The notes under the pieces are model-generated. The model was not told the origin of the DNA and did not search any database. It saw nothing but the letters and a program-made list of their open reading frames with translations. A program made the translations under genes and the position numbers. A DNA stretch of 18,765 nt from a virus (lineage: Duplodnaviria; Heunggongvirae; Uroviricota; Caudoviricetes). Shown piece by piece: positions 1 to 17,516 of this stretch. Where the stretch lies: the IMG/VR virus record IMGVR_UViG_2663762908_000006; one strand, given 5' to 3'. How positions within the stretch are numbered: position 1 is the stretch's first letter; every line of letters starts with the position of its first letter.

Positions 1-216
1 ATGAAATCCATGGACAAGTTAACAACGGGCATTGCCTACGGCACCTCCGCAGGCAGTGCTGGCTACTGGTTTTTACAGTGGCTTGATCAGGTCAGTCCAT
101 CACAGTGGGCTGCTATTGGTGTGCTGGGAAGTCTGGTTCTGGGCTTTCTGACTTACCTGACGAATCTGTACTTCAAAATAAGAGAAGACAAGCGTAAAGC
201 TGCGCGGGGAGAGTAA
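1..216 (+). CDS. Class II holin (pinholin), S21 family, 71 aa, with dual-start motif
   Basis: Translation [71 protein letters not shown] closely matches my recollection of phage 21 S21 and the K-12 EssQ/EssD holins. Two short TM segments; Met1 and Met4 (MKSM) give the classic antiholin/holin dual start. Sits directly upstream of the SAR endolysin. Confidence 0.85.
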
Positions 217-3202: not shown

Positions 3203-3374
3203 TTTGATTCTAATGCATTGATAATAAATGATAATCATCTTTATCTGTTTGTGTGAAATTTAGACCGTCGTATGTTGATTATTGCGATGTTTCATCTTAT
3301 CTTTTATACGTTTGCTCCATATAATTGACACTACTGTGTACCAGGAAAGTCATAACAGACTAAAAGAGGAAATG

Positions 3375-3548
3375 ATGAACATTGAAGAGTTAAAAACAAA
3401 AACAGAAGCAGATATTTCTGAATATATAACAAAAAAAATCATTGAGCTTAAGAAAAAGACCGGGAAAGAAGTTACCAGTATCCAGTTTACTGCACGGGAA
3501 AAAATGACTGGTCTTGAAAGCTATGATATCAAGATTGATTTAATCTAG
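3375..3548 (+). CDS. gnsB: GnsA/GnsB-family small protein
   Basis: 57 aa: MNIEELKTKTEADISEYITKKIIELKKKTGKEVTSIQFTAREKMTGLESYDIKIDLI, closely resembling K-12 GnsB as I recall it. GAGGA SD at 3366-3370. The Qin-like cspI - ynfN - gnsB order is conserved. Confidence 0.8.
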   Translation: MNIEELKTKTEADISEYITKKIIELKKKTGKEVTSIQFTAREKMTGLESYDIKIDLI

Positions 3549-3841: not shown

Positions 3842-4048
3842 ATGCATAAAGATCAATACACTGATGCCCCCTCCCAGGAGCAGGTTCGTGTAAAAACTAT
3901 GCTTAATAGCACCATTTCGATGGGTTACCCGGATGTTGTAATTGCATGTATAGAACATCAAGTGTCTCTGGAAGCATTCAGGGCAATTGAGGCCGCGTTA
4001 GTAAAGCACGATAAGAATACGAAGGATTATTCCCTGGTGGTTGACTGA
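3842..4048 (+). CDS. Hypothetical small protein (68 aa)
   Basis: ATG preceded by GGAG about 7 nt upstream; protein-like composition ([58 protein letters not shown]...). Last ORF of the accessory island before the cos region. Family not recognised. Confidence 0.4.
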
Positions 4049-4411
4049 TCACCATAACTGCTAACCATTCTGACCATTTCACAAGTGACAGAGTCAATAT
4101 CGTATTCTGTCACTGTCAGGCTAATACAGCAATGCAATTCAACTACAGCAATGCCTCGTATTTAGGTGAATTTACAATATCGTCCAGTTCGGATGCCGGC
4201 TGCATTTCTGAAGATAAGGCATTTCGGTTCTCGTATTTTCCCCTCATGCTCGTCAGTCCTGCGCGTAGTAAGAAACAGGACACTCACACTAATTTGTGTG
4301 GGCATGCTGTGATGTCCTTCTGAATTATCCCCATGCCATTATGTAAAGCTCTGTTTCAGATGCTCGTCACGGTTGTCAGGCTGTCGGGTCCTCCCAGTGG
4401 GGGTCCCTGCC

Positions 4412-4431
4412 ACGGGGCGGGAGCGTCGCGG
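4412..4431 (+). other. Putative cosN (cohesive-end site), with an IHF-like site at 4478-4490 in a putative cosB
   Basis: ACGGGGCGGGAGCGTCGCGG resembles the lambda cosN region as I recall it (ACGGGGCGGCGACCTCGCGG; left end GGGCGGCGACCT). It lies about 195 bp upstream of the Nu1-like gene, matching lambda spacing. TAATTTATTGATA at 4478-4490 fits the IHF consensus WATCAANNNNTTR on the - strand. Confidence 0.4.
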
Positions 4432-4610
4432 AAAAAGGCTAGTTTTTGCATTTCCATGGCGGCGGCAGCATGTTTGGTAATTTATTGATAATTAAAAGTT
4501 ATTTCTCTTTTCAGCTGTACAATATTTTTTTCTCCCTGTCATTAGACTAGTTTGCAATTAATTGAAATATATAAATAAACCTGATTTTCACCTGCCAGAT
4601 GGAGTTGCTT

Positions 4611-5138
4611 ATGTCAAATGTGAGCGGGATCGGTGATGCTTATTACTGGAGTGTTTTTAAAATCGCCGAGGCCTTTGGGCTTCACTGGGACACAGTAAAA
4701 AAACGGCTCCTCGCGGCCAACACTCCTGTGGCTGCGACTGTCAGGGGGAACCCCGTTTACGCCCTGCAGCATGTCGGGCCTGCCCTGTTTAGTGTGAAGC
4801 ATGAGGCAGCAGACTCTGTTCATGATCCATCCCGTATGGAGCCGAAAGAGAGAAAGGACTGGTACCAGTCGGAAAATGAAAGGATCAAGCTGGAAAAGGA
4901 GCAGCGAAAACTCATCCCCGTTGATGAAGTAGTCATCGTCTATTCGTCCATGAGAAAGGCTGTCGTCCAGGTTCTGGAGACAATTCCGGATGTTCTTGAA
5001 CGCGATTGCGCCCTGACTCCTCAGGCCGTTGGCGTTGTACAGCAGGCCATTGATGACCTGCGATACACTCTTCAGGAAAAATCCTACGAGGCTTGTGCTG
5101 CTGAATTAATTCCTGATGAGGAAGGAGAGAGTCTCTAG
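4611..5138 (+). CDS. Terminase small subunit (Nu1-like)
   Basis: Immediately upstream of the gpA-family large terminase, with stop adjacent to the TerL SD. The N-terminal region has a winged-HTH-like pattern comparable to lambda Nu1. GGAG 6 nt upstream of ATG 4611; the ORF opens at 4599. Confidence 0.6.
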   Translation: MSNVSGIGDAYYWSVFKIAEAFGLHWDTVKKRLLAANTPVAATVRGNPVYALQHVGPALFSVKHEAADSVHDPSRMEPKERKDWYQSENERIKLEKEQRKLIPVDEVVIVYSSMRKAVVQVLETIPDVLERDCALTPQAVGVVQQAIDDLRYTLQEKSYEACAAELIPDEEGESL

Positions 5139-5146
5139 GAGGAATA

Positions 5147-7246
5147 ATGGGTTTTTCATCAGCCCGAAATTTGGGAAGGGACATATCGGCAGGATTTTCC
5201 CCACCACGTCGCATGCCGATTTCGGAGGCTGTTAAAAAATTCATGCGTGTTCCCAAGGGGGCTGGTAACTCGGTGCCATGGGATCCTGAACTGACACCCT
5301 ACATCATTGAGCCCATGAACTGCCTGGCATCGCGTGAATACGATGCGGTGATTTTTGTTGGTCCTGCGCGAACAGGGAAGACCATTGGTCTGATCGATGG
5401 ATGGATTGTCTATACCATCGTTTGCGATCCTTCGGACATGCTCGTTGTGCAGATGACCGAAGATAAGGCCCGCGAGCATTCAAAAAAGCGCCTCGACAGA
5501 ACGTTCAGAAGCAGTGCGGCGGTAAAGAAAAGAATGAGTCCACGTCGTAATGACAATAATGTCCATGATAAGACGTTCAGGGATGGCTCGTTCCTTAAAA
5601 TTGGTTGGCCCTCGGTCAACATTATGTCGTCGTCGGATTACCGGTTTGTCGCCTTAACCGATTACGACCGTTTTCCGGAGAATATCGACAGCGAGGGTGA
5701 TGGTTTCTCCCTGGCCTCAAAACGTACCACCACATTTATGTCCGCCGGGATGACTCTGGTGGAGAGCTCGCCGGGACGTGACATCTGCGACAGCAAATGG
5801 CGACGTAAGTCGCCTCATGAAGCGCCACCGACGACTGGTATTCTTTCCCTTTACAATCGTGGTGACCGCCGCCGCTGGTACTGGCCATGTCCGCACTGCG
5901 GTGAATATTTTCAGCCAGCCATGGATGCCATGACCGGCTACCGTAATGAACCGGATCCCTTTAAAGCCAGTGAGGCGGCGTATCTACTTTGCCCGCACTG
6001 CAGCGGCATTATCACGGCGGAGAAAAAGCGTGAGCTCAATAGTGCAGGAGTCTGGTTGCGTGAAGGTCAGGTCATTGATTGTAACGGCAACGTTTCCGGT
6101 GAACCGCGCCGCTCCCGTATCGCCAGTTTCTGGATGGAAGGGCCAGCTGCTGCGTATCAGACCTGGGCGCAACTGGTTTACAAATTACTGACTGCAGAAC
6201 AGGAGTATGAAGCGACAGGAAGTGAAGAAACACTCAGGGCGGTTATCAACACCGACTGGGGATTACCTTATCTTCCCCGCGCCAGCATGGAGCAACGAAA
6301 AAGTGAACTGCTTGAGCAGCGGGCAGAGCCAGTTCCTTCCCGCAGTGTGCCGGATGGCGTTAATTTTCTTGTGGCGACAGTGGATGTGCAGGCGGGACGT
6401 CATCGCCGTTTTGTGGTTCAGGTAACGGGCTATGGCAGCCGTGGCGAACGCTGGATTATTGATCGTTACAACATCACGCAGTCATTGCGCGGTGACAGCG
6501 ACGGGGAGAGCCAGCGAATTGATCCGGCCAGCTATCCGGAAGACTGGGATGTCCTGCTGACGGATGTTTTTCATAAAAGCTGGCCGCTGGCCTCCGATCC
6601 TTCTCAACAAATGCGACTGATGGCAATGGCGGTGGACTCCGGCGGTGAAGACGGGGTCACTGATAATGCCTATAAATTCTGGCGTCGTTGCCGTCGTGAT
6701 GGCCTTGGTAAACGTATTTACCTGTTTAAGGGCGACAGCATCCGGCGCGCAAAACTGATCACCCGTACATTCCCTGATAACACCGGACGAACGGGCCGAC
6801 GGGCGCAGGCCGCAGGTGATGTGCCGCTCTGGCTTCTTCAGACGGATGCACTGAAAGACCGGGTGAATAACGCGTTATGGCGTGACTCGCCAGGTCCCGG
6901 CTATGTGCATTTCCCTGACTGGCTGGGGAGCTGGTTTTACGACGAACTGACGTATGAAGAGCGGAGCAGTGACGGGAAATGGAGTAAGCCGGGTCGCGGT
7001 GCCAACGAAGCTTTTGACCTGATGGTGTATGCCGAGGCTCTGGTCATTCTGCATGGATACGAAAAGATCCGCTGGCCGGATGCACCGGAGTGGGCGAGCC
7101 GGGAAACCTGGCTGGAGTGTGTCCCGGACAGTACCGAACCGTCATCCTCACCGGAACCGGTATCCACGCCTGTTAAAAAACAAAAACGGAAGAAAACAGT
7201 AACTGACGATGTTAACCCCTGGCTGACTTCCGGAGGATGGTTATGA
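5147..7246 (+). CDS. A: Terminase large subunit (lambda gpA family)
   Basis: 699 aa with AGGAGG SD. Walker A-like VGPARTGKT and a zinc-finger-like CPHCGEYF...CPHCSG pair, as in lambda gpA (CPHCGEE...). Size and position fit. Confidence 0.9.
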   Translation: MGFSSARNLGRDISAGFSPPRRMPISEAVKKFMRVPKGAGNSVPWDPELTPYIIEPMNCLASREYDAVIFVGPARTGKTIGLIDGWIVYTIVCDPSDMLVVQMTEDKAREHSKKRLDRTFRSSAAVKKRMSPRRNDNNVHDKTFRDGSFLKIGWPSVNIMSSSDYRFVALTDYDRFPENIDSEGDGFSLASKRTTTFMSAGMTLVESSPGRDICDSKWRRKSPHEAPPTTGILSLYNRGDRRRWYWPCPHCGEYFQPAMDAMTGYRNEPDPFKASEAAYLLCPHCSGIITAEKKRELNSAGVWLREGQVIDCNGNVSGEPRRSRIASFWMEGPAAAYQTWAQLVYKLLTAEQEYEATGSEETLRAVINTDWGLPYLPRASMEQRKSELLEQRAEPVPSRSVPDGVNFLVATVDVQAGRHRRFVVQVTGYGSRGERWIIDRYNITQSLRGDSDGESQRIDPASYPEDWDVLLTDVFHKSWPLASDPSQQMRLMAMAVDSGGEDGVTDNAYKFWRRCRRDGLGKRIYLFKGDSIRRAKLITRTFPDNTGRTGRRAQAAGDVPLWLLQTDALKDRVNNALWRDSPGPGYVHFPDWLGSWFYDELTYEERSSDGKWSKPGRGANEAFDLMVYAEALVILHGYEKIRWPDAPEWASRETWLECVPDSTEPSSSPEPVSTPVKKQKRKKTVTDDVNPWLTSGGWL

Positions 7247-7455
7247 ACCAGAATGATATCGAAGCCATGATTCAGCGTTATACGGAAGCTGAAATGGCGG
7301 TGCTGGACGGAAAATCCGTCACCTTTAATGGTCAGCAGATGACCATGGAAAACTTATCTGAGATCCGGCAGGGACGGCAGGAGTGGGAGCGCCGCCTTGC
7401 GGCTCTGATTACACGACGACGGGGGCATCCCGGGTATCGGCTGGCGAGGTTCTGA
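7243..7455 (+). CDS. W: Head-tail joining protein gpW-like
   Basis: 70 aa, start overlapping the TerL stop (ATGA) with GGAGGA 8 nt upstream. C-terminus ...RRRGHPGYRLARF resembles lambda gpW ...RRRGPAGFYV. Lambda gene order A-W-B. Confidence 0.8.
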   Translation: MNQNDIEAMIQRYTEAEMAVLDGKSVTFNGQQMTMENLSEIRQGRQEWERRLAALITRRRGHPGYRLARF

Positions 7456-8963
7456 TGGCAATTCTTGATGATGTGATTGGCGTTTTTTCACCAGGATGGA
7501 AAGCGGCAAGGCTGCGTTCCCGTGCGGTGATCCAGGCTTATGAGGCCGTAAAAACGACGCGGACACACAAAGCCCGACGGGAGAACCGAACTGCCGACCA
7601 GTTAAGCCAGTACGGGGCCGTGTCGTTACGTGAGCAGGCCCGTTACCTTGATAACAACCACGATCTGGTTATTGGTGTATTTGACAAGCTGGAAGAACGG
7701 GTGGTGGGGAAAAACGGGATTATTGTCGAGCCACATCCGGTATTACGCAATGGGGCCATTGCCCGTGACCTGGCTGCGGAGATTCGCACCCGATGGAGTG
7801 AATGGTCTGTCAGCCCGGAAGTCACCGGGCAGTTTACCCGTCCGATGCTGGAACGTCTGATGCTTCGTACCTGGCTGCGCGATGGTGAGGTGTTTGCCCA
7901 GATGGTTTCCGGGCGCATAAACAGCCTGACGCCTTCTGCCGGTGTTCATTTCTGGCTGGAGGCGCTCGAGCCGGACTTTATTCCCATGACCAGTGATGAG
8001 AGCAACAGGCTGAATCAGGGCGTGTTTGTTGATGACTGGGGGCGTCCCGAAAAATATCTGGTGTATAAAAGCCGTCCCGTATCCGGACGGCAGATGGAAA
8101 CCAAAGAAGTGGATGCAGAGCGAATGCTGCATCTTAAATTTGTTCGCCGTCTGCACCAGATGCGCGGGACGTCTTTATTGTCCGGTGTGCTGATCCGCCT
8201 CAGTGCTCTGAAAGAGTATGAAGATTCTGAGCTGACTGCAGCAAGGATCGCCGCTGCTCTGGGGATGTACATCCGGAAAGGCGACGGGCAGAGCTATGAA
8301 GCGGATGGTAATGGCAGCAAGGATAAGGAACGCGAGCTTACCATTCAGCCAGGCATTATTTACGATGATCTGAAACCCGGCGAAGAAATCGGAATGGTGA
8401 AGTCGGATCGCCCCAATCCTAACCTTGAAACTTTTCGTAATGGTCAGTTGCGTGCCGTGGCGGCGGGCAGTCGTCTGAGTTTTTCCAGTACAGCGCGCAA
8501 CTATAACGGCACTTACAGCGCCCAGCGTCAGGAGCTGGTTGAATCCACTGATGGCTACCTGATCCTGCAGGACTGGTTTATTGGTGCCGTCACCCGTCCG
8601 ATGTATCGTGCCTGGCTGAAACAGGCTGTGGCATCCGGTGTTATCAGGCTACCCCGCGATCTTGACCGTTCTTCACTGTATACCGCGGTGTATTCCGGAC
8701 CGGTGATGCCGTGGATTGACCCTGTTAAGGAGGCTGAGGCCTGGAAAATCCAGATTCGTGGTGGAGCGGCGACAGAATCAGACTGGGTACGTGCTGGTGG
8801 TCGTAATCCGGATGATGTCAAACGTCGGCGCAAGGCCGAAATTGATGAAAACCGCAAGCTGGATCTGGTATTTGATACCGATCCGGCCAGTGATAAAGGA
8901 GGCAGCAGTGCCGCAACGAAACGACATGAGCCGCAGCACACCGACGACCAGTCCGAAGAATAA
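7455..8963 (+). CDS. B: Portal protein (lambda gpB family)
   Basis: 502 aa, ATG overlapping the gpW stop (TGATG). Size and position between W and the protease/capsid gene match the lambda portal. Confidence 0.85.
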   Translation: MAILDDVIGVFSPGWKAARLRSRAVIQAYEAVKTTRTHKARRENRTADQLSQYGAVSLREQARYLDNNHDLVIGVFDKLEERVVGKNGIIVEPHPVLRNGAIARDLAAEIRTRWSEWSVSPEVTGQFTRPMLERLMLRTWLRDGEVFAQMVSGRINSLTPSAGVHFWLEALEPDFIPMTSDESNRLNQGVFVDDWGRPEKYLVYKSRPVSGRQMETKEVDAERMLHLKFVRRLHQMRGTSLLSGVLIRLSALKEYEDSELTAARIAAALGMYIRKGDGQSYEADGNGSKDKERELTIQPGIIYDDLKPGEEIGMVKSDRPNPNLETFRNGQLRAVAAGSRLSFSSTARNYNGTYSAQRQELVESTDGYLILQDWFIGAVTRPMYRAWLKQAVASGVIRLPRDLDRSSLYTAVYSGPVMPWIDPVKEAEAWKIQIRGGAATESDWVRAGGRNPDDVKRRRKAEIDENRKLDLVFDTDPASDKGGSSAATKRHEPQHTDDQSEE

Positions 8964-10935
8964 TTCCTGGTTCAGGATGCAGGCTGGTCACCAGAGTGAC
9001 GCGGATATTTATATTTATGACGAGATTGGTTTCTGGGGTGTTACAGCGAAGCAGTTTATCAGTGATCTGAATGCACTGGGCGATATCACCCACATTAATC
9101 TCCATATTAATTCACCGGGTGGCGATGTCTTTGAAGGCATCGCCATTTTTAATGCGCTGAAAACACATGGTGCGTCCATTACCGTTTATGTCGACGGTGT
9201 GGCGGCGTCAATGGCGTCGGTCATTGCGATGGTGGGAAACCCGGTCATTATGCCGGAAAACACCTTCATGATGATTCATAAACCATTTGGCTTTACGGGC
9301 GGTGATGCGGAGGACATGCGCACCTATGCCGACCTGCTCGATAAAGTTGAGGCGGTTCTGTTACCCGCTTATGCACAGAAAACCGGGAAAACCACCGATG
9401 AAATTGCTGCCATGCTGGCGGATGAGACCTGGATGTCCGGTGCCGAATGTCTGGCACATGGATTTGCTGATCAGGTAACGCCAGCCGTTAAGGCAATGGC
9501 ATGTATTCAGTCAAAACGTACAGAGGAATTTAAAAAGATGCCGGAATCCATTCGAAACATGATTACTCCGCCACGCAACAGTGCTCCACGCGTACAGGAT
9601 AATGAACCTGAAGCCTCCCGGACGCCAGTGCAGGCAGCAGCACCCGTGGTGGATGAAAACAGCATCCGTGCGCAGGTACTGGCAGAGCAAAAAGCGCGTG
9701 TAAACGGTATTAATGATCTGTTTGCCATGTTTGGCGGGCGTTATCAGACGCTGCAGGCTCAGTGTCTTGCCGATCCTGAATGTTCGCTGGAGCAGGCCCG
9801 CGAAAAGCTGTTGAACGAGATGGGGCGCGAGTCCACGCCATCCAATAAAAATACCCCGGCTCATATTTATGCCGGTAACGGTAATTTTGTGGGGGACGGG
9901 ATCCGCCAGGCGCTGATGGCGCGTGCCGGATTTGAAAAAACCGAACGTGATAATGTCTACAACGGGATGACCCTGCGTGAATATGCCCGTATGTCACTGA
10001 CTGAACGGGGTATTGGGGTTTCCAGTTATAACCCGATGCAGATGGTCGGTGCGGCGTTCACACACAGTACGTCTGACTTCGGTAATATTCTGCTGGATGT
10101 TGCGAACAAAGCCATTCTGCAGGGCTGGGAAGATGCCCCTGAAACCTATGAACAGTGGACGCGGAAAGGTCAGTTGTCTGATTTTAAAATTGCCCATCGT
10201 GTGGGTATGGGTGGCTTCAGTGCTCTGCGTCAGGTGCGTGAAGGGGCGGAATATAAATACGTCACCACCGGAGATAAACAGGCCACTATTGCACTGGCGA
10301 CCTATGGCGAGCTGTTCAGTATCACCCGTCAGGCCATTATCAATGATGATCTGAATATGCTGACCGATGTCCCGATGAAACTGGGCCGTGCGGCGAAATC
10401 CACTATTGCCGATCTGGTTTATGCCATTCTGACGTCTAACCCGAAAATCTCCACAGATAATGTAAGTCTGTTCGATAAAGCGAAACATGCAAACGTACTG
10501 GAGAGCGCTGCAATGGACGTGGCATCGCTGGATAAAGCCCGCCAGTTGATGCGCGTTCAGAAAGAGGGGGAGCGTCATCTGAATATTCGTCCTGCGTTCG
10601 TACTGGTACCGACGGCGATGGAGTCTGTTGCTAACCAGGTCATTCGCTCCTCAAGTGTCAAGGGGGCTGACATTAACGCCGGTATTATTAACCCGGTGAA
10701 AGATTTTGCGACCGTTATTGCAGAGCCTCGTCTTGATGATAACAGCCAGACCACCTTCTACCTGGCTGCGTCAAAAGGCTCCGATACGATTGAAGTGGCT
10801 TATCTCAACGGTGTGGATACGCCATATATTGATCAGATGGAGGGCTTCAGTGTGGATGGCGTGACAACGAAAGTGCGTATTGACGCCGGTGTCGCGCCAG
10901 TTGATCACCGCGGTCTGGTGAAATGTACGGCGTAA
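8908..10935 (+). CDS. Prohead protease (ClpP/S14-like) with linker and major capsid domain in one ORF
   Basis: GTG start with AAGGAGG 5 nt upstream, overlapping the portal 3' end by 56 nt. N-terminal ~250 aa is ClpP-like (IYIYDEIGFWG..., INSPGGDVFEG, VDGVAASMASVIAMVG...). The middle is Pro/Ala/Gln-rich; the C-terminal ~350 aa resemble Mu-gpT/HK97-type capsid proteins. Replaces the lambda C-Nu3-D-E block. Confidence 0.75.
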   Translation: MPQRNDMSRSTPTTSPKNNSWFRMQAGHQSDADIYIYDEIGFWGVTAKQFISDLNALGDITHINLHINSPGGDVFEGIAIFNALKTHGASITVYVDGVAASMASVIAMVGNPVIMPENTFMMIHKPFGFTGGDAEDMRTYADLLDKVEAVLLPAYAQKTGKTTDEIAAMLADETWMSGAECLAHGFADQVTPAVKAMACIQSKRTEEFKKMPESIRNMITPPRNSAPRVQDNEPEASRTPVQAAAPVVDENSIRAQVLAEQKARVNGINDLFAMFGGRYQTLQAQCLADPECSLEQAREKLLNEMGRESTPSNKNTPAHIYAGNGNFVGDGIRQALMARAGFEKTERDNVYNGMTLREYARMSLTERGIGVSSYNPMQMVGAAFTHSTSDFGNILLDVANKAILQGWEDAPETYEQWTRKGQLSDFKIAHRVGMGGFSALRQVREGAEYKYVTTGDKQATIALATYGELFSITRQAIINDDLNMLTDVPMKLGRAAKSTIADLVYAILTSNPKISTDNVSLFDKAKHANVLESAAMDVASLDKARQLMRVQKEGERHLNIRPAFVLVPTAMESVANQVIRSSSVKGADINAGIINPVKDFATVIAEPRLDDNSQTTFYLAASKGSDTIEVAYLNGVDTPYIDQMEGFSVDGVTTKVRIDAGVAPVDHRGLVKCTA

Positions 10936-10958
10936 ACGTCGCAGACAACAACTCTGAT

Positions 10959-10978
10959 GGCCCGTAAGGGCTTTTTTT
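10959..10978 (+). terminator. Weak intrinsic terminator after the capsid gene
   Basis: GGCCC-GTAA-GGGCT stem with a GNRA-type loop followed by seven Ts. A second perfect 6-bp hairpin (AGCCCC-TGAAC-GGGGCT, 10991-11007) follows, without a T-run. Confidence 0.4.
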
Positions 10979-11021
10979 GTACCTGAAATCAGCCCCTGAA
11001 CGGGGCTGTGCGGAGACAGTT

Positions 11022-11345
11022 ATGGCAAAGAATTTTGTAGAAGAAGGAAAAACGGTGGCGATTGTTGCCAGTGCAGCCATCAGCAGCGGAGATCTGGTGC
11101 AGGTGGGTGATGTTTTTGCGGTGGCGCTGACCGATATTCCACAGGGTGAAACAGGCGACGGCATGACCGAAGGTGTGTTTATCCTGCCTAAACTGAAAAC
11201 GGATGACATGAAAACGGGTAAGAAGGTTTATCTGAAGTCCGGAAAAGTTCAGCTGACTAACAGCGGCTCTGATCCGCTGGTCGGGGTTGTCTGGGCAGAT
11301 GCCGGAACCAGTGCAGAAGAAGTGCCGGTAAAACTCAATGTCTGA
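11022..11345 (+). CDS. Small head protein (DUF2190-like; at the decoration/FI position)
   Basis: 107 aa from ATG 11022 with GGAG 6 nt upstream; Gly/Val-rich beta-type composition. Lies between the capsid gene and the FII-like gene. Confidence 0.5.
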   Translation: MAKNFVEEGKTVAIVASAAISSGDLVQVGDVFAVALTDIPQGETGDGMTEGVFILPKLKTDDMKTGKKVYLKSGKVQLTNSGSDPLVGVVWADAGTSAEEVPVKLNV

Positions 11346-11613
11346 TCCCTTTTCCCGGCTGGCAGCGCGTATGGATGCGATCACGGTCAGAAAGATGGGA
11401 AAGACAGCCTCGATTAATGATGTCGATATGGCTGTGATCCCGGGCGAAACACTGGCAGAGCTGAATGCTCTGTCCGGACCTGCGGTCTCTCTGGTGGTGT
11501 TTTCTTCGGGATACCGCCCACGGCGCGGGGATCGCGTTGTTTATGACGGACAACAATGGACGGTCACACGGCATGAACGTTTTAACGGTAAGCCAATGAT
11601 CTTTATTGAGTAA
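11338..11613 (+). CDS. FII: Head-tail joining protein, gpFII-like
   Basis: 91 aa. Resembles lambda FII at both ends (DPFSRLAARMDAIT vs DFDNLFDAAIARAD; RPRRGDRVVYDGQQWTV vs RQLRRGDTLTIGEENFWV). Position before gpZ as in lambda. Confidence 0.6.
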   Translation: MSDPFSRLAARMDAITVRKMGKTASINDVDMAVIPGETLAELNALSGPAVSLVVFSSGYRPRRGDRVVYDGQQWTVTRHERFNGKPMIFIE

Positions 11614-11624
11614 AGAGGTGTGGG

Positions 11625-12203
11625 ATGAAGGGGCTTGAGAATGCCATCCGCAATCTGAACAGCCTTGATACCCGTATGGTGCCACAGGCCAGCGCATGGG
11701 CGATAAACCGTGTGGCACAGAAAGCGGTCTCGGTTGCCACCCGGCAGGTTGCCGGGAATACCGTTGCGGGAGATAACCAGGTGAAAGGGATCCCCCTGAA
11801 ACTGGTACGTCAGCGTGTCCGGGTGTTTAAAGCCAGTCCGTCAGGAAAAATGACGGCCAGGATCCGCGTTAACCGGGGCAATCTGCCCGCCATTAAGCTG
11901 GGGACAGCCCGGGTCAGACTGGCCCGGCGTGGTGGAAAACTGCAGTACCGTGGCAGTGTGCTGAAGGTGGGTAAATATCTTTTCCGGGATGCGTTTATTC
12001 AGCAACTGGCGAATGGTCGCTGGCATGTGATGCGGCGTATTGATGGCAAAAATCGTTACCCCATTGATGTGGTGAAAATCCCGCTTTCCGGACCGCTGAC
12101 ACAGGCATTTGAAGATGCCCGCGACCGCATCATTGCTGCGGAAATGCCGAAACAGCTGGGGTATGCACTGAAACAACAACTGAGGTTATGGCTGACCCGA
12201 TGA
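11625..12203 (+). CDS. Z: Tail attachment / tail completion protein gpZ
   Basis: 192 aa, the same length as lambda gpZ, with clear similarity (KGLE..., AINRVA, IKVNRG-LP-IKLG-ARV, FIQQL-NGRWHVM-R--GKNRYPIDVVKIP, LGYAL--QLR). AGAGGTG SD. Confidence 0.85.
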   Translation: MKGLENAIRNLNSLDTRMVPQASAWAINRVAQKAVSVATRQVAGNTVAGDNQVKGIPLKLVRQRVRVFKASPSGKMTARIRVNRGNLPAIKLGTARVRLARRGGKLQYRGSVLKVGKYLFRDAFIQQLANGRWHVMRRIDGKNRYPIDVVKIPLSGPLTQAFEDARDRIIAAEMPKQLGYALKQQLRLWLTR

Positions 12204-12601
12204 ACCGACATACACAAATCCGCCAGGCCGTACTGGCACGCCTTCGGGAACAGTGTGGAGACAGCGCCACGTTTTTTGACGGGCTTCCGGCATTTATTGA
12301 TGCGCAGGAACTGCCTGCCGTGGCGGTGTGGCTGAGTGATGCTCAGTACACCGGAAAAATGACGGATGAAGATGACTGGCAGGCTGTTCTGCATATTGCT
12401 GTCTTCATCCGGGCACAGGCACCGGATTCAGAGCTGGATATGTGGATGGAGAGCACCATTTTCCCGGCTCTGAATGATATACCGGCACTTTCCGGACTCA
12501 TCGACACCCTGATCCCTCTCGGTTTTAACTATCAACGTGATAATGAGATGGCCACCTGGGCGATGGCGGAAATCACGTACCAGATCACGTACACGAATTA
12601 A
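12188..12601 (+). CDS. U: Tail terminator protein gpU
   Basis: Similar to lambda gpU (ATFFDG-PA, FPAVAV-L--A-YTG, ELHI-VF--AQ-PDSELD-WMES-I-P---DIPALS-LI). Overlaps the Z stop. Start 12188 or 12200 is ambiguous. Confidence 0.85.
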   Translation: MADPMNRHTQIRQAVLARLREQCGDSATFFDGLPAFIDAQELPAVAVWLSDAQYTGKMTDEDDWQAVLHIAVFIRAQAPDSELDMWMESTIFPALNDIPALSGLIDTLIPLGFNYQRDNEMATWAMAEITYQITYTN

Positions 12602-12606
12602 AGGAG

Positions 12607-13356
12607 GTGGCAATGACCACACCAAATCCACTGGCAAAAACGAAAGGTGCGGGAACGACGTTCTGGATGTACACCGGCAAGGGCGATGCGTTTGCGAACC
12701 CTTTATCGGACACTGACTGGCTGCGTCTTGCGATGGTGAAGGATCTGCAACCTGGCGAAATGACCGCTGATGCAGAAGATGACACTTATCTCGATGATGA
12801 AGATGCAGACTGGAAAACGACAACCCAGGGGCAGAAATCCGTCGGTGATACTTCGGCGACGCTGGCCTGGCGTCCGGGTGACAGCGGACAGAAAAAACTG
12901 GTTCAGTTGTTCGACTCCGGTGAAGTCTGCGCGTTTCGTATCAAATATCCCAACGGCACTGTTGATGTTTTCCGTGGCTGGCTGAGCTCACTGGGTAAAA
13001 CCATTGCCTCAAAAGACGTGATGACCCACACAGTGAAAATCAGCGGTGTGGGGCGTCCGTATCTGGCAGAGGAAGGCACTGAAACAGTGAGCGTTACCGG
13101 GCTGACGGTGGCACCGGCATCTGCCAGTGTAAAAGTGGGAGCAACCACCACGCTGACCTTTACAGTAAAACCTGACGGAGCCAGTGACAAAGCGATCAGT
13201 GTGCATTCGACAGATCCACAGACTGCCACGGTGACCCTGAACGGGCTTGTGGCCACGGTGAAAGGCGTGAAGCAGGGCAGTGTCAGCATTGTGGGCATGA
13301 CTTCTGACGGCGATTTTGTGGCAGTGGCTGCGGTGGCTGTCAGCGCCGCAGGTTAA
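12607..13356 (+). CDS. V: Major tail protein gpV with C-terminal Ig-like (Big_2-type) domain
   Basis: 249 aa with AAGGAGGT SD. Strong similarity to lambda gpV along its length (KGAGTT-W-Y-G-GD--ANPLSD-DW-RLA-VKDL-PGE-TA, YLDDEDADW, FPNGTVDVFRGW-SS-GK). The C-terminal ~90 aa are Thr/Val/Ser-rich and Ig-like. Confidence 0.92.
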   Translation: MAMTTPNPLAKTKGAGTTFWMYTGKGDAFANPLSDTDWLRLAMVKDLQPGEMTADAEDDTYLDDEDADWKTTTQGQKSVGDTSATLAWRPGDSGQKKLVQLFDSGEVCAFRIKYPNGTVDVFRGWLSSLGKTIASKDVMTHTVKISGVGRPYLAEEGTETVSVTGLTVAPASASVKVGATTTLTFTVKPDGASDKAISVHSTDPQTATVTLNGLVATVKGVKQGSVSIVGMTSDGDFVAVAAVAVSAAG

Positions 13357-13376
13357 CAGGACGATACTCATCATTT

Positions 13377-13400
13377 GCCCCGGTTATCCGGGGCTTTTTT
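13377..13400 (+). terminator. Rho-independent terminator between V and G
   Basis: Perfect GCCCCGG-TTAT-CCGGGGC hairpin followed by TTTTTT. Confidence 0.6.
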
Positions 13401-13413
13401 GCAGGTGGAGAAC

Positions 13414-13803
13414 ATGATGTTTCTGAAACAGGGCACGTTTAATTATGAAAAGCAGTCCGTGGTGCTCAGTGAGCTGTCCGGGCTGCAGAGAATTGAATAT
13501 CTGGCGTTTGTTCAGCAGCGAACGGCAAAGTTTGATGCCGAAGAGGGAGAACTGCCGGAGGCTGAACGACAGATTGCTTTTCTGCGGATGGGGATGGATA
13601 TCAATGCCTGGCTGGTTTCCCGCTCACTGTGGAATGCGGAACAGTCTCAGGATGTTGAGACGCTTTGCGCATCCGTTATTACAACATGGTCGTATGATGC
13701 CCTGGGAGCGGGGGCGGAGATGGTTCTGTCGCTGAGCGGTATGGGAGCCATTGAGAATGCCGGGGATTTGGAGCATGAGGTGCTGACGCCGGAAAAGTCC
13801 TGA
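13414..13803 (+). CDS. G: Tail assembly chaperone gpG
   Basis: Similar to lambda gpG (MFLK..., V-LSELS-LQRIE-LA). GGTGGAG SD. Followed by a -1-frame ORF as in the lambda G/T pair. Confidence 0.85.
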   Translation: MMFLKQGTFNYEKQSVVLSELSGLQRIEYLAFVQQRTAKFDAEEGELPEAERQIAFLRMGMDINAWLVSRSLWNAEQSQDVETLCASVITTWSYDALGAGAEMVLSLSGMGAIENAGDLEHEVLTPEKS

Positions 13804-14141
13804 CGCGGGAAATGCAGTTTGTCATGCGGCTTGCCCGGGAGTTCAGGCGGGCAGACTGGCGGCGGATGCTGTCGGAAATGTCGGCCACTGAGCTTGGTGA
13901 GTGGGGCGATTATTTCCGGATGCAGAGCTTCAGTGATGTGTGGATGGATGCGCAGTTTGCCTCGCTGAAGGCATTGATCGTGAGAATGGTGTCCGGCAGC
14001 AGTGATGCTGCGGTGGCTGATTTCAGCCTTTTACCGGAAGAGAACGGGATACCGGAGCGAACGGACGAAGAACTGATGCATCTTGGGGAAGGTATTTCCG
14101 GAGGTGTGCGTTATGGACCAGATAGCCAACCTGGTCATTGA
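13791..14141 (+). CDS. T: gpT segment of the G-T tail assembly chaperone, reached by a programmed -1 frameshift from G
   Basis: The -1 frame relative to G is open from 13779 to the stop at 14141 and overlaps the last codons of G. Candidate slip site GGAAAAG at 13791-13797 (zero-frame GAA AAG). Conserved G/T arrangement of long-tailed phages. Confidence 0.6.
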   Translation, partial: GKVLTREMQFVMRLAREFRRADWRRMLSEMSATELGEWGDYFRMQSFSDVWMDAQFASLKALIVRMVSGSSDAAVADFSLLPEENGIPERTDEELMHLGEGISGGVRYGPDSQPGH

Positions 14142-17100
14142 TTTGGGGATTGATGCGGCAGAGTTTAAAAATGAAATTCCCCGTATCAAAAACCTTCTGA
14201 ATGGTGCAGCCAGCGATGCAGAACGGTCTTCTGCCCGTATGCAGCGTTTTATGGAGCGTCAGACTCAGGCCGCCCGGCAGACAACGCAGGCGGCGTCTTC
14301 GGCTGCAACAGCCGCATCCGTCCATGCGCAGACGGTGGAGAAGAACGCACAGGCTCATGAACGCATGGCCCGCGAGGTGGAGAAAACCCGCCAGCGTATG
14401 GAGGCACTGAGCCAGAAAATGCGCGAGGAACAGGCGCAGGCCATGGCTCTGGCGGAGGCTCAGGATAAAGCAGCTGCTGCGTTTTATCGTCAGATTGACA
14501 GTGTGAAACAGGCCAGTGCGGGGCTGCAGGAATTACAGCGTATTCAGCAGCAGATCCGACAGGCCAGAAACAGTGGCGGGATTGGTCAGCAGGATTATCT
14601 GGCGCTGATTTCTGAGGTTACGGCGAAAACCCGTGTTCTTACGCAGGCTGAGGAAGAGGCTACCCGACAGAAAGTGGCGTTTATCCGTCAGCTTAAAGAG
14701 CAGGCAACCCGCCAGAATCTTTCTTCTTCTGAGTTGCTTCGTGCTAAGGCTGCCCAGCTGGGGGTAAGCAGTGCTGCAGAAGTGTATATCCGCAAAATGG
14801 AGCAGGCAGGAAAAGCCACGCATTCGCTGGGTCTGAAAAGTGCAGCGGCCCGCCAGGAGATAGGCGTTCTGATAGGTGAACTGGCCCGCGGCAATTTAGG
14901 GGCGCTGAGGGGATCCGGGATAACGCTGGCTAACCGTGCCGGATGGATAGACACTCTGATGTCACCGAAAGGCATGATGCTTGGCGGGGTTATTGGCGGT
15001 ATTGCCGCGTCCGTCTATGGTCTGGGTAAAGCCTGGTATGACGGTCAGAAGGAGGGGGAAGAATTTAACCGCCAGTTGTCGCTGACGGGGCATTATGCCG
15101 GAGTCACTGCCGGGCAGCTGTGGACGCTCAGTCGTGCTATTTCCGGGAATGGTATCACGCAACATGCTGCAGCCGGTGTGCTGGCTCAGGTGGTGGGGAG
15201 TGGTGCATTTCGTGGAAACGATATCGGTATGGTGGCGAGAGCTGCCGCACAGATGGAGCGATCGGTTGGCCAGTCGGTCAGCGATACCATAAATCAGTTT
15301 AAGCGGCTGAAGGATGATCCTGTAAATGCCGCGAAGGCTCTGGACAATGAGCTGCATTTTCTTACTGCCACTCAGCTTGAGCAGATACGTGTCCTTGGGG
15401 ATCAGGGACGGTCCAGTGATGCTGCACGGATAGCCATGTCTGCACTGGCAGAGGAAACCGGTCGGCGTACTGCGGATATTGATAATAACCTCAATGCGCT
15501 TGGCAGTACGCTGAAGTATCTGTCTGATTTATGGAGTCGTTTCTGGGATGCGGCCATGAATATTGGTCGTGAAGACTCGCTGGATGAACAGATTGCCGCT
15601 TTACAGGAGAAAGTGTCGCGGGCGAAAAGACTCCCCTGGACGGCATCATCTTCTCAGGTTGAATACGATCAGCAGCGTCTTAACGATCTTCAGGAGAAAA
15701 AACGCCAGAAGGATTTGCAGGATGCAAAAGAGCAGGCAGAGCGGAATTATCAGGAGCAACAGAAACGACGTAATGCTGAAAATGCTGCACTGAACCGGAT
15801 GAATGAAACGGAAGCAGCACGACATCAGCGTGAAATTGCGCGTATTAATGCCATGCAGTACGCCGATCAGGCTGTCAGGGATGCAGCGATACAACGTGAA
15901 AATGAACGTTACGAGAAAGCCCTGGCATCCGGTAAGAAAAAAACACGCGAAACCCGTAATGATGAGGCCACCCGGTTATTGCTGCAGTACAGTCAGCAAC
16001 AGGCACAGGTGGAAGGACAGATTGCTGCTGCAAGACAGTCAGCAGGCATTGCCACTGAAAAGATGACAGAAGCGCATAAACAGCTTCTGGCTCTGCAGCA
16101 GCGCATCAGCGATCTGGACGGGAAAAAACTGACGGCAGATGAAAAGAGTGTGCTGGCCCGTAAAGATGAACTGATTCAGGCACTGACGCTGCTGGATGTA
16201 AAACAGCAGGAGCTTCAGAAACAGACGGCACTCAACGATCTGAAGAAAAAAACAATTCAGCTGACCAGTCAACTGGCTGAAGAAGAGCTCGCTCAGCGTC
16301 AGCAACATGACCTGGATATCGCCACGGTGGGTATGGGTGATCAGCAGCGGCAGCGATATCAGGTACAACTGAGTCTTCGCCAGAAATACCAGCAACAGCT
16401 GGAGCAGTTGAGGCGGGATAGTGAGCAGAAAGGGACATATAACACGGATGACTACAGAAAGGCCGAGCAGGCGCTGACGGAGAGCCTGAACCGACAACTG
16501 AATGAGAATCGCCGTTACTGGCAACAGCTTGAAGTTGTGCAGGGTAACTGGAAAAACGGAGTCCTGCGTGCATTTCAGGATTTTACCGTGGATGCAGACA
16601 ATACGGCAGGAACAGCAGAACAGGTGTTCTCGTCAGCCTTCAGCAACATGGGAAATGGCCTGGCAACTTTTGTCACTACCGGCAAACTCAACTTCAAATC
16701 CTTCACCTCTTCGGTGCTGTCAGATATGGCGAAAATCCTGGCGCAGGCAACCATGATGAAATCGATAAAAGGGATTGGCAGTGTACTGGGATTTGATCTC
16801 AGCAGCCTTTCCCTGAATGCCAATGGGGGGATTTATCAGTCTGCTGATTTGAGTCGTTACAGTGGCACGGTGGTTAACCGTCCGACGTTTTTTGCTTTTG
16901 CAAAAGGCGCGGGTGTGATGGGGGAAGCGGGACCTGAAGCCATTCTGCCACTGCGTCGTGGTGCTGACGGTAAGCTGGGGGTTGTGGCGGATATTGGTGG
17001 TTCAGGTATGGCGATGTTTGCCCCGCAGTACAACATCGAGATCAATAACGATGGCACGAACGGGCAGATAGGTCCGGCTGCCCTGAAGGTGGTTTATGAC

Positions 17101-17178
17101 CTTGGGAAAAAAGCGGCAGCGGACTTTATGCAACAGCAGGCCCGTGATGGTGGTCGGTTAAGTGGAGCATATCGGTAA
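14113..17178 (+). CDS. H: Tail tape measure protein gpH
   Basis: 1021 aa with GGAGGTG SD 6 nt upstream of ATG 14113 (the ORF opens at 14083 with TTG). Long Gln/Ala/Glu-rich coiled-coil central region; Gly-rich hydrophobic segments near the C-terminal third. Position between G/T and M. Confidence 0.9.
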   Translation: MDQIANLVIDLGIDAAEFKNEIPRIKNLLNGAASDAERSSARMQRFMERQTQAARQTTQAASSAATAASVHAQTVEKNAQAHERMAREVEKTRQRMEALSQKMREEQAQAMALAEAQDKAAAAFYRQIDSVKQASAGLQELQRIQQQIRQARNSGGIGQQDYLALISEVTAKTRVLTQAEEEATRQKVAFIRQLKEQATRQNLSSSELLRAKAAQLGVSSAAEVYIRKMEQAGKATHSLGLKSAAARQEIGVLIGELARGNLGALRGSGITLANRAGWIDTLMSPKGMMLGGVIGGIAASVYGLGKAWYDGQKEGEEFNRQLSLTGHYAGVTAGQLWTLSRAISGNGITQHAAAGVLAQVVGSGAFRGNDIGMVARAAAQMERSVGQSVSDTINQFKRLKDDPVNAAKALDNELHFLTATQLEQIRVLGDQGRSSDAARIAMSALAEETGRRTADIDNNLNALGSTLKYLSDLWSRFWDAAMNIGREDSLDEQIAALQEKVSRAKRLPWTASSSQVEYDQQRLNDLQEKKRQKDLQDAKEQAERNYQEQQKRRNAENAALNRMNETEAARHQREIARINAMQYADQAVRDAAIQRENERYEKALASGKKKTRETRNDEATRLLLQYSQQQAQVEGQIAAARQSAGIATEKMTEAHKQLLALQQRISDLDGKKLTADEKSVLARKDELIQALTLLDVKQQELQKQTALNDLKKKTIQLTSQLAEEELAQRQQHDLDIATVGMGDQQRQRYQVQLSLRQKYQQQLEQLRRDSEQKGTYNTDDYRKAEQALTESLNRQLNENRRYWQQLEVVQGNWKNGVLRAFQDFTVDADNTAGTAEQVFSSAFSNMGNGLATFVTTGKLNFKSFTSSVLSDMAKILAQATMMKSIKGIGSVLGFDLSSLSLNANGGIYQSADLSRYSGTVVNRPTFFAFAKGAGVMGEAGPEAILPLRRGADGKLGVVADIGGSGMAMFAPQYNIEINNDGTNGQIGPAALKVVYDLGKKAAADFMQQQARDGGRLSGAYR

Positions 17179-17507
17179 TGGAGACGTTTCACTGGAAAGT
17201 GCGCCCGGATATGAATGTGGTATCAGAGCCGAAAGTGGTGACAGTGAAGCTGGGCGATGGTTATGAACAGCGTCGTGCGGCGGGACTGAATAACCAGTTG
17301 TCGACTTACAGCGTGACGATACGTGTTCGTAAATGTGAACACCCATCTTTAAAAGCCTTTCTGGAACGGCACGGTGGCGTCCGCGCATTTCAGTGGACGC
17401 CACCTTATGACTGGAAGCCGATCAGGGTGGTTTGTCGTAAATGGTCGGCAAGCGTGGGGGCGTTGTGGGTAACCATAACGGCAGATTTTGAACAGGTCGT
17501 GGCATAG
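17178..17507 (+). CDS. M: Minor tail protein gpM
   Basis: 109 aa, the same length as lambda gpM and clearly similar (F-WKV-P-M-V-S-P-V--V--GDGY-QR-AGLN--L-TYSVT, HGG---F-WTPPY-W--I-V-C-KWS, EFEQVV). Start overlaps the H stop (TAATG). Confidence 0.9.
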   Translation: METFHWKVRPDMNVVSEPKVVTVKLGDGYEQRRAAGLNNQLSTYSVTIRVRKCEHPSLKAFLERHGGVRAFQWTPPYDWKPIRVVCRKWSASVGALWVTITADFEQVVA

Positions 17508-17516
17508 GAGTCTCTG

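What the first reader, a model, noticed from the sequence alone, without database searches (positions are those of the whole stretch)
4380..4610. Lambda-like cos site with variant cohesive-end sequence and an IHF site
ACGGGGCGGGAGCGTCGCGG resembles the lambda cosN region but differs in the middle of the predicted 12-nt overhang (GGGCGGGAGCGT versus GGGCGGCGACCT). It lies about 195 bp upstream of the Nu1-like gene, as in lambda, and an IHF consensus match sits about 60 bp downstream. A variant cohesive end would mark a packaging specificity distinct from lambda and 21.
Basis: partly seen in the sequence, partly recalled or inferred. Interest (0 to 1): 0.5.

Follow-up and report, generated by a model that had tools for sequence, protein, structure and literature searches.

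The report
Known cos site of cdtI-type prophage

Summary
ACG|GGGCGGGAGCGT|CGCGG lies at 4412-4431, and lambda's cosQ heptamer GGGTCCT lies 22 bp upstream (4386-4392). The small-terminase start is 185 or 197 bp downstream. A perfect IHF core, TATCAATAAATTA, sits on the minus strand at 4478-4490.

It is not new. The GenBank records of phage cdtI (2007) and phage Tritos begin exactly at window 4415 and end at ...CCACG. From 4415 onward the window is 98% identical to their left arms. Parts of the 231-bp finding region match 2122 of 5426 complete E. coli genomes.

An IMG/VR scan separates two lambda-like cos classes, one with Nu1-type small terminases and one with DUF1441-type. This site belongs to the DUF1441 class. 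In that class bp 1-6 and both flanks are constant and bp 7-12 vary freely, as the Feiss laboratory has described.

The identical cosN is joined to at least four different cosB and small-terminase alleles. Lambda and 21 share one cohesive end yet differ in specificity. Specificity is probably distinct here, but because of cosB and the small terminase.

In passing: in sibling prophages a satellite-like island inserted in the large-terminase gene carries a copy of exactly this cos block.

The parts
4386..4613 (+). Complete cos region, from cosQ to the small-terminase start
   Evidence: A satellite-like island in sibling prophages carries a copy of this block and nothing more. BLASTN homology (91.8%) runs from window 4386 to 4618, with unrelated DNA upstream and no small-terminase ORF downstream.
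4386..4392 (+). cosQ heptamer GGGTCCT (packaging termination element in lambda)
   Evidence: Only occurrence in the window. It is 22 bp before the top-strand nick, against 23 bp in lambda. PMC4669245 calls cosQ highly conserved. It stayed unchanged in nearly all of the 51 upstream variants although those loci were chosen by the small-terminase protein, not by cosQ; the adjacent spacer varies.
4393..4412 (+). Variable cosQ-cosN spacer. It contains a second GGGTCCC at 4401-4407 and ends in the class-conserved CCTGCCA.
   Evidence: More than 50 spacer variants occur among DUF1441-class loci, while the length stays at 20 nt plus CG.
4413..4428 (+). cosN, CG|GGGCGGGAGCGT|CG. Predicted nicks are between 4414 and 4415 on the top strand and between 4426 and 4427 on the bottom strand, giving a 12-nt 5' overhang at 4415-4426.
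   Evidence: The cdtI and Tritos records begin at 4415 and end at ...CCACG. The flanks match lambda. 8 of 16 bp are two-fold symmetric, against 10 of 16 in lambda. Nicking itself was not tested.
4427..4447 (+). Class-conserved right-flank box CGCGGAAAAAGGCTAGTTTTT. It is alignable with lambda's CGCGGGTTTTCGCTATTT.
   Evidence: Nearly invariant across 56 distinct DUF1441-class sequences, whatever the cosB allele. Its function is inferred.
4455..4472 (+). Allele-specific block CATGGCGGCGGCAGCATG at bp 41-58, a candidate small-terminase site equivalent to R3
   Evidence: It occupies the place where sibling alleles carry GTCATCATCATCA or GTCATCACCAC, and where lambda and 21 have R3 at bp 50-65 (PMC9026076). 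It is invariant in 79 loci and in the satellite copy. Binding is an inference.
4478..4490 (-). IHF core consensus TATCAATAAATTA, equivalent to I1 (bp 64-76)
   Evidence: Perfect match, with chance about 2.6%. In 13 of 16 DUF1441-class cosB alleles the best IHF-like core (0-2 mismatches) lies at bp 61-64 on the minus strand. Lambda's best match is at bp 79-91 on the minus strand. Phage 21's annotated I1 is at bp 74-86.
4508..4517 (+). TTTTCAGCTG (TTTTCACCTG in most relatives), first copy of a 10-bp direct repeat and a candidate R-like element
   Evidence: Read from the sequence. The majority variant, with C, equals the second copy. My rough estimate is that a 10-bp repeat arises by chance about 0.1 times in a region of this size, so it is weak evidence.
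4585..4594 (+). TTTTCACCTG, second copy of the repeat, just upstream of the small-terminase ribosome-binding site
   Evidence: Conserved in the satellite copy.
4611..5138 (+). Small terminase subunit, Pfam DUF1441 (alternative start at 4599)
   Evidence: PF07278, E=5e-43. Annotated as small terminase in cdtI and Tritos. hhalign against a Nu1 profile gives 65-73% probability, is collinear, and aligns the N-terminal helix-turn-helix regions.
5147..7246 (+). Large terminase subunit, gpA family (ATPase plus endonuclease domains)
   Evidence: PF05876, E=5e-81, and PF20454, E=2e-86. 99.6% identical to cdtI's large terminase, about 24% to lambda-group gpA proteins, and about 40% to large terminases in Salmonella siphovirus records such as FSL SP-088 and SAP012, which I take from memory to be Chi-like.

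Best explanation
Window 4386-4613 is the cohesive-end site (cos) of a cdtI/Tritos/mEp460-type lambdoid prophage of Escherichia coli. The mechanism is inferred by analogy with lambda. The DUF1441 small terminase binds allele-specific sites in cosB (about 4448-4598). IHF bends the DNA at 4478-4490. This positions two copies of the gpA-family large terminase on cosN. They nick the top strand between 4414 and 4415 and the bottom strand between 4426 and 4427, giving virion DNA with 12-nt 5' overhangs GGGCGGGAGCGT. Packaging then runs rightward into the head and tail genes and stops at the next cos, where cosQ (4386-4392) is needed for the final nick. Positions 7-12 of the overhang are a neutral, freely varying part of cosN. 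They do not determine which terminase packages the DNA.
For: Shown by tools:
- The lambda-type cosQ, spacer, cosN and flanks are present.
- Two independently deposited phage genomes (cdtI, and Tritos, which forms plaques) start at 4415 and end at ...CCACG (Tritos virions and plaques in PMC9928086).
- The window from 4415 to 17882 is 98.1-98.6% identical to their left arms.
- The large terminase has both gpA domains, and the small-terminase gene lies 185 or 197 bp from the end.
- An IHF-like core sits at bp 61-64 on the minus strand in 13 of 16 cosB alleles.
- A satellite-like island copies exactly 4386-4618.
- There is no promoter-like or terminator-like site in 3900-4700.

From the literature:
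- The roles of cosQ, cosN, cosB and I1, and the lack of cosN specificity of the terminases (PMC4669245, PMC9026076).
- The same inference was made for the sibling phages mEp213 and LLS (PMC12315714).
Against: - No physical end mapping could be examined. The cdtI paper (PMC1964815) and Vahanian 2017 are not in the library, so I cannot say whether the deposited termini were measured or placed by analogy.
- Small-terminase binding sites could not be defined. The only repeat, TTTTCASCTG, is not beyond chance, and no R3(+)/R2(-)/R1(+) triplet like that of sibling alleles is evident.
- IHF binding rests on a consensus match in AT-rich DNA.
- Whether this particular prophage is inducible cannot be judged from 18.7 kb.
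Confidence: 0.9

Rival explanations
1. One reading: the variant cohesive end GGGCGGGAGCGT is itself the mark or determinant of a packaging specificity distinct from lambda and 21.
For: The overhang differs from lambda and 21 at 4 of 12 positions. Within the window's own small-terminase allele, cosN is almost invariant: 78 of 79 loci.
Against: The same 24-bp cosN plus flank is joined to at least 4 cosB and small-terminase alleles (clusters of 89, 57 and 14 loci, plus a single locus). Locus L145 has the window's cosB and small terminase with GGGCGGCAGCGG. Near-identical right halves occur in both classes: Gifsy-1 (Nu1 type) has GGGCGGCAGCGT, 1 nt different. Lambda and 21 share one end but not their specificity (PMC4669245). 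Lambda and N15 terminases cut either cosN equally well (PMC4669245).
Confidence: 0.07
2. The sequence is a genuine cos but an inactive relic. The prophage in this genome is defective, so the site is never cut here.
For: Many E. coli lambdoid prophages are defective. Matches to the region occur up to 7 times per genome. Sibling prophages exist with the large-terminase gene split by an inserted island.
Against: In the window, the small terminase, large terminase (699 aa, both domains), portal and protease-capsid ORFs are intact. Every cos element matches that of plaque-forming relatives.
Confidence: 0.12
3. Chance resemblance: a GC-rich stretch that happens to look like cosN, while the phage packages by a headful (pac) mechanism.
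For: None beyond the short length of the motif.
Against: cosQ, spacing, both flanks, position relative to the terminase genes, a gpA-family large terminase and the deposited genome ends all coincide. More than 120 IMG/VR loci carry the exact 24-mer.
Confidence: 0.01

Closest known systems
cos of phage cdtI (AB285204 / NC_009514) and phage Tritos (OV696610)
   Same: Identical cosN and flanks. cosB is 98-99% identical and the small and large terminases are 99-100% identical. The records start at window 4415.
   Different: A few point differences in cosB, for example CAGCTG here against CACCTG. The region left of cos differs in cdtI. In practice this is the same element.
Bacteriophage lambda cos (cosQ-cosN-cosB with R3-I1-R2-R1, Nu1 and gpA)
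   Same: The cosQ heptamer, bp 1-6 of the overhang, ACG and CGCGG flanks, a 12-nt overhang geometry, an IHF-type site between cosN and the small-terminase gene on the same strand, about 190 bp to the small-terminase start, and a gpA-family large terminase.
   Different: Overhang bp 7, 8, 9 and 11. The spacer is 1 bp shorter. cosB has no similarity to lambda's R sites. The small terminase is DUF1441 with only remote profile similarity to Nu1. The large terminase is about 24% identical to lambda-group gpA proteins.
Gifsy-1 cos
   Same: The overhang GGGCGGCAGCGT differs from this one only at bp 7. The Feiss laboratory cites it as an example of right-half variation (PMC4669245).
   Different: Gifsy-1 has a Nu1-type small terminase, the lambda-class flank CGCAGGATTTCAC and lambda-like R sites, so it belongs to the other cos class.
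mEp213 / LLS putative cos (GGGCGGCGCGCT) and the VT1-Sakai, CP-1639 and mEp460 prophage cos regions
   Same: The same DUF1441 class: the CCACG| flank, the |CGCGG(A/G)AAA(A/C)GGCTAGTT box, a 20-nt spacer, an IHF-like core at about bp 62, and a protease-capsid fusion head gene (PMC12315714).
   Different: Different right halves of the overhang. Their cosB alleles are built on TCATCA-type repeats, and their small-terminase N-terminal domains differ.
Chi-like Salmonella siphoviruses
   Same: Large terminases in Salmonella siphovirus records (FSL SP-088, SAP012 and others) are about 40% identical to this one, closer than lambda's. DUF1441 appears in the text of a paper on Chi-like Salmonella phages, which I did not open. 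That these records are Chi-like, and that Chi has 12-nt 5' cohesive ends, rests on my memory and was not checked here.
   Different: These are virulent phages with an unrelated cos sequence, not lambdoid mosaics.

Membership tests
[quoted passage not shown] | cosN with the conserved left half GGGCGG and conserved base pairs flanking both nick sites | tested here: met
   CG|GGGCGGGAGCGT|CG at 4413-4428. Bp 1-6 and both flanks are identical to lambda.
lambda-like cos site | The 7-bp cosQ GGGTCCT about 20-25 bp upstream of cosN | tested here: met
   4386-4392, 22 bp before the nick, and the only copy in the window.
lambda-like cos site | cosB between cosN and the small-terminase gene, with an IHF site (I1) | tested here: met
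   Perfect IHF core at bp 64-76 on the minus strand, conserved in position across cosB alleles. This is a match by sequence only; binding was not tested.
lambda-like cos site | Three small-terminase binding repeats arranged R3(+), R2(-), R1(+) | tested here: inconclusive
   Sibling alleles show TCATCA-type repeats in that arrangement. In this allele I find only the block at 4455-4472 and a 10-bp direct repeat at 4508-4517 and 4585-4594.
lambda-like cos site | Virion DNA ends are 12-nt 5' overhangs at this site | not testable with these tools
   Indirect only: the cdtI and Tritos records start and end at the predicted nick. The primary papers could not be read.
lambda-type terminase | Large subunit of the gpA family (ATPase plus endonuclease domains) | tested here: met
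   PF05876 and PF20454, E=5e-81 and 2e-86.
lambda-type terminase | Small subunit of the Nu1 family | tested here: not met
   The only Pfam hit is DUF1441. BLASTP against Nu1 gives E=3.6. Profile-profile comparison gives only 65-73% probability. It is a positional and probably remote structural analogue, not a family member.
DUF1441-class lambdoid cos (cdtI, mEp213, VT1-Sakai group; my label) | CCACG| left flank, |CGCGG(A/G)AAA(A/C)GGCTAGTT right box, a 20-nt cosQ spacer, and a DUF1441 small terminase downstream | tested here: met
   All four features are present.

The most novel reading that the evidence does not exclude
The cos block itself is ordinary, but it may be the target of an undescribed kind of piracy. 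In sibling prophages a roughly 10.8-kb island is inserted in the helper's own large-terminase gene. The island encodes an integrase, a primase, SSB, a protease-capsid fusion and its own DUF1441 small terminase. It also carries a copy of exactly cosQ-cosN-cosB of this phage type, without the small-terminase gene that normally follows. If this is a satellite packaged through that copied cos, the window's cos defines a helper specificity that satellites exploit. The GC-rich block at 4455-4472 would then be the recognition element of an uncharacterised small-terminase specificity.
Probability: 0.3. Interest if true: 0.5.

Novelty: already known. Interest (0 to 1): 0.12.

Why it matters
For this window it matters little. 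The finding correctly locates the packaging site of a very common E. coli prophage type, and that is useful for annotation: genome ends, direction of packaging, and the spurious small ORFs called across cos in some records. The useful correction is conceptual. [quoted passage not shown] A variant sticky end should therefore not be read as a new packaging specificity. The comparative data also give a clean natural delimitation of the cis-acting cos (4386 to about 4613). They separate a Nu1-class and a DUF1441-class cos architecture that share cosQ and the left half of cosN although their large terminases are only about 24% identical.

Tried and rejected
- Primary papers. Asakura 2007 (cdtI phage) and Vahanian 2017 (cosN natural history) are not held, so the experimental status of the ends is unresolved. 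The Tritos and Ayreon papers do not report cos ends.
- Literature search for the 12-mer, its complement and sibling 12-mers. It returned only unrelated papers, apart from PMC12315714 for GGGCGGCGCGCT.
- Physical-end evidence from contig ends. IMG/VR hits are almost all prophages inside longer contigs, so they say nothing about ends.
- R sites. The repeat finder and inspection by eye gave no convincing R3/R2/R1 triplet. Variation among 79 near-identical loci is too low for footprinting.
- A conserved hairpin or compensatory changes in the cosQ-cosN spacer. The variants show no consistent pairing, so I dropped the idea.
- Direct similarity of the small terminase to Nu1 or to any solved structure. 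None was found.
- A promoter or terminator as an alternative reading of the region. None was found.
- Taxonomic spread. The exact 21-mer occurs only in E. coli and E. ruysiae species representatives, plus two MAGs that are probably mis-binned.

Full report
**1. What is in the sequence.**
Reading outward from it, every element of a lambda-type cohesive-end site is present:
- The only GGGTCCT in the window (lambda's cosQ) is at 4386-4392.
- A 20-nt spacer plus CG follows.
- The predicted 12-nt overhang GGGCGGGAGCGT is at 4415-4426.
- The flank CGCGG follows the overhang.
- Next comes an AT-rich stretch of 22-33% G+C.
- The small and large terminase genes follow.

Lambda's own ends, fetched for comparison, read ...GGGTCCT-N21-CG|GGGCGGCGACCT|CGCGG. 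The two sites therefore share cosQ, bp 1-6 of the overhang and both nick-flanking sequences. They differ at bp 7, 8, 9 and 11, and by 1 bp in the spacer. The lambda-derived 14-base pattern has this single match, with no mismatch; 0.10 matches are expected even with two mismatches allowed.

The IHF core consensus matches perfectly at 4478-4490 on the minus strand. A perfect core appeared anywhere in 2.6% of composition-matched simulations of this 172-bp region. No promoter-like or terminator-like site offers another reading of the region.

**2. It is already in the databases as a genome end.**
Megablast of 4200-4800 against phage records shows that phage cdtI (AB285204 / NC_009514) and phage Tritos (OV696610) begin at query position 216, which is window 4415. 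The first bases of both records are GGGCGGGAGCGTCGCGG, and both records end in ...CCTGCCACG. From 4415 to 17882 the window is 98.1% and 98.6% identical to their left arms.

Tritos is a prophage of strain LF82 that produces virions and plaques (PMC9928086). HannyBb, an isolated phage, is 99% identical across the region, although its record is opened elsewhere.

The 231-bp finding region is 100% identical to E. coli HS. It has at least a partial match in 2122 of 5426 complete E. coli genomes, and in 886 of them the match covers 80% or more of it. The exact 24-mer of cosN plus flank occurs in more than 120 IMG/VR contigs. Among one-per-species genomes it is confined to Escherichia, apart from two MAGs that are probably mis-binned.

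I could not read the cdtI paper, so I do not know whether its ends were measured or placed by analogy.

**3. Where it sits among lambda-like cos sites.**
I scanned IMG/VR for GGGTCCT-N16-28-CGGGGCGG and classified what lies downstream. The real sites fall into two classes:

| Feature | Nu1 class | DUF1441 class (this window) |
|---|---|---|
| Spacer | 21 nt | 20 nt |
| Left flank | TTACG\| | CCACG\| |
| Right flank | \|CGCGGGTTTTCGCTATTT | \|CGCGG(A/G)AAA(A/C)GGCTAGTT |
| Small terminase | Nu1-type | DUF1441 |
| Overhang | mostly GGGCGGCGACCT | bp 7-12 highly variable |

In the DUF1441 class, bp 7-12 read GAGCGT, CGCGCT, CTGGCT, CGGACT, GAGCGG, CAGCGG, AGGACT and CGAACT, among others. In that scan GGGCGGGAGCGT was the second commonest 12-mer overall, with 11 loci against 49 for lambda's.

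This agrees with published statements. [quoted passage not shown] The cos of mEp213 and LLS, members of the same class, has been inferred as GGGCGGCGCGCT, with reference to Vahanian et al. 2017 (PMC12315714).

Gifsy-1, which that laboratory cites as differing from lambda at bp 8, 9 and 11, reads GGGCGGCAGCGT. That is 1 nt from this window's end, but Gifsy-1 belongs to the Nu1 class.

**4. The terminase.**
- *Large subunit.* It has both gpA domains. It is only about 24% identical to lambda-group gpA proteins. It is about 40% identical to large terminases in Salmonella siphovirus records such as FSL SP-088 and SAP012, which I take from memory to be Chi-like.
- *Small subunit.* Its only Pfam hit is DUF1441. 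It has no BLASTP similarity to Nu1 (E=3.6) and no relative among solved structures.
- *Profile comparison.* I built profiles from the ORFs that follow the two cos classes. They align collinearly over about 150 columns with 65-73% probability, and the N-terminal helix-turn-helix regions are in register.

"Nu1-like" is therefore fair for position and probably for architecture. It is not family membership.

**5. Does the variant end mark a packaging specificity? No.**
- The identical cosN plus flank is followed by at least four different cosB sequences. Their small-terminase N-termini also differ: MSNVSGIGDAYYWSVFKIAEAFGLHWDTVKKRL here, against MDRELKNLTLNISQLAALSGVHRQTAAARL and two further variants. 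The clusters hold 89, 57 and 14 loci plus a single locus.
- The divergence between alleles begins about 33-36 bp to the right of the left end.
- Conversely, one locus with this window's cosB and small terminase carries GGGCGGCAGCGG.
- Lambda and 21 have the same 12 bases but different R sites and do not package each other's DNA (PMC4669245).
- Lambda and N15 terminases use either cosN equally well. A mismatch between the two ends costs only about four-fold in yield (PMC4669245).

The specificity of this phage is very probably different from lambda and 21. The reason is that cosB and the small-terminase DNA-binding domain are unrelated to theirs.

**6. Anatomy of cosB and the IHF site.**
Across 16 representative DUF1441-class cosB alleles, the best IHF-like core in bp 45-95 lies at bp 61-64 on the minus strand in 13 alleles, with 0-2 mismatches. 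Lambda's best match is at bp 79-91 on the same strand. Phage 21's annotated I1 is at bp 74-86. That conservation of position is better evidence than the single match, so I rate a functional I1-type site as likely (about 0.65).

Sibling alleles show TCATCA-type repeats in a lambda-like arrangement: plus strand at bp 43-57, minus strand near bp 95-104, and plus strand near bp 118-128. This window's allele instead has the GC-rich block CATGGCGGCGGCAGCATG at bp 41-58 (4455-4472). It also has a 10-bp direct repeat TTTTCASCTG at bp 94-103 and bp 171-180. I could not show that either is a binding site. Variation among the 79 near-identical loci is too low for footprinting.

**7. An independent delimitation of the site.**
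IMG/VR contig L046 and the chromosome of E. coli fS58a contain a prophage 98.8-98.9% identical to the window. Its large-terminase gene is split at window 6127-6136, and those 10 bp are duplicated at the two junctions.

The insert is about 10.8 kb. It encodes an integrase, a BRO-N protein, an Icd-like protein, a DUF4222 protein, a primase, SSB, a ClpP-capsid fusion protein and its own DUF1441 small terminase.

Inside the island is a copy of this cos. By BLASTN the homology (91.8%) starts at the first base of cosQ (4386) and ends at 4618. The DNA upstream is unrelated, and the small-terminase ORF is destroyed. An element that keeps precisely cosQ through the end of cosB, and nothing else, is good comparative evidence that 4386 to about 4613 is the cis-acting unit.

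**8. Verdict.**
The element is a known one, found in a very common prophage family. The proposed significance, a new specificity marked by the cohesive end, does not hold. Interest is low. The island in the large-terminase gene is the only thing I met that may deserve separate follow-up.

Noticed in passing
L331 4870-15683 (E. coli fS58a, NZ_CM176576.1); also L046 1900-10760 and L330. The insertion point corresponds to window 6127-6136.: A roughly 10.8-kb integrative island sits inside the large-terminase gene of a prophage 98.8-98.9% identical to the window, with a 10-bp duplication TTTCTGGATG. It encodes a tyrosine integrase, an HTH protein, BRO-N, an Icd-like protein, DUF4222, a primase, SSB, a ClpP-capsid fusion, its own DUF1441 small terminase and a 93-aa ORF. 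It carries two cos sites in the same orientation. One is a copy of the window's cosQ-cosN-cosB without a small-terminase gene. It looks like a PICI- or cf-PICI-like satellite. Only 4 of 5426 complete E. coli genomes hold 80% or more of it. I did not establish whether this type has been described.
   Followed up: partly
window 4427-4450, and loci: The identical cosN and right-flank box is joined to at least four different cosB and small-terminase alleles, with the sequence break about 33-36 bp right of the left end. This suggests a recombination hotspot or module boundary just inside cosB.
   Followed up: partly
window 8716-10935: A single 739-aa ORF combines a ClpP-type prohead protease with a major capsid protein domain (PF00574 plus PF25209), the fused arrangement reported for Gifsy-2-type heads. 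The ORF start given by the ORF listing overlaps the portal gene, so the true start is probably later.
   Followed up: no
window 3282-3548: An ORF with a GnsA/GnsB toxin domain (PF08178, E=8e-33) lies in the moron region between the lysis genes and cos. The sibling prophage in L331 has cspI, ymcF, ynfN and gnsB there.
   Followed up: no
IMG/VR loci L016, L032, L038, L082, L116, L122: Pairs of lambda-type cos sites (GGGCGGCGACCT) on opposite strands, about 0.6-2 kb apart where both positions are listed, several with no Nu1 gene downstream. They may be PICI-type cos regions or assembly artefacts.
   Followed up: no
L327 (Veillonella parvula MAG) and L329 (Bacillota MAG): The exact Escherichia-type 21-mer of this cos occurs in contigs binned to Firmicutes MAGs. 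This is most likely mis-binned E. coli prophage DNA.
   Followed up: no
L008 1-30 (mEp460_4F5, LR595868.1): The record starts CCACGGGGCGGGAGCGCGG, 5 nt left of the predicted nick, and lacks 2-3 bases of the cosN/flank junction compared with mEp460. This looks like an assembly artefact at the physical ends of linear virion DNA.
   Followed up: no
window 4333-4488, and HannyBb record PP925841 44292-44691: Small ORFs are called across cosQ, cosN and cosB (a 51-aa ORF here, and three hypothetical proteins in HannyBb). They overlap the cis-acting packaging site and are probably spurious.
   Followed up: no
window 4401-4407: A second GGGTCCC, a near-copy of cosQ, lies 7 bp before the nick. This spacer variant is shared by about 40 loci. 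Other loci have GGGGCCC or GGTGGCC at that place, so it is not conserved.
   Followed up: partly
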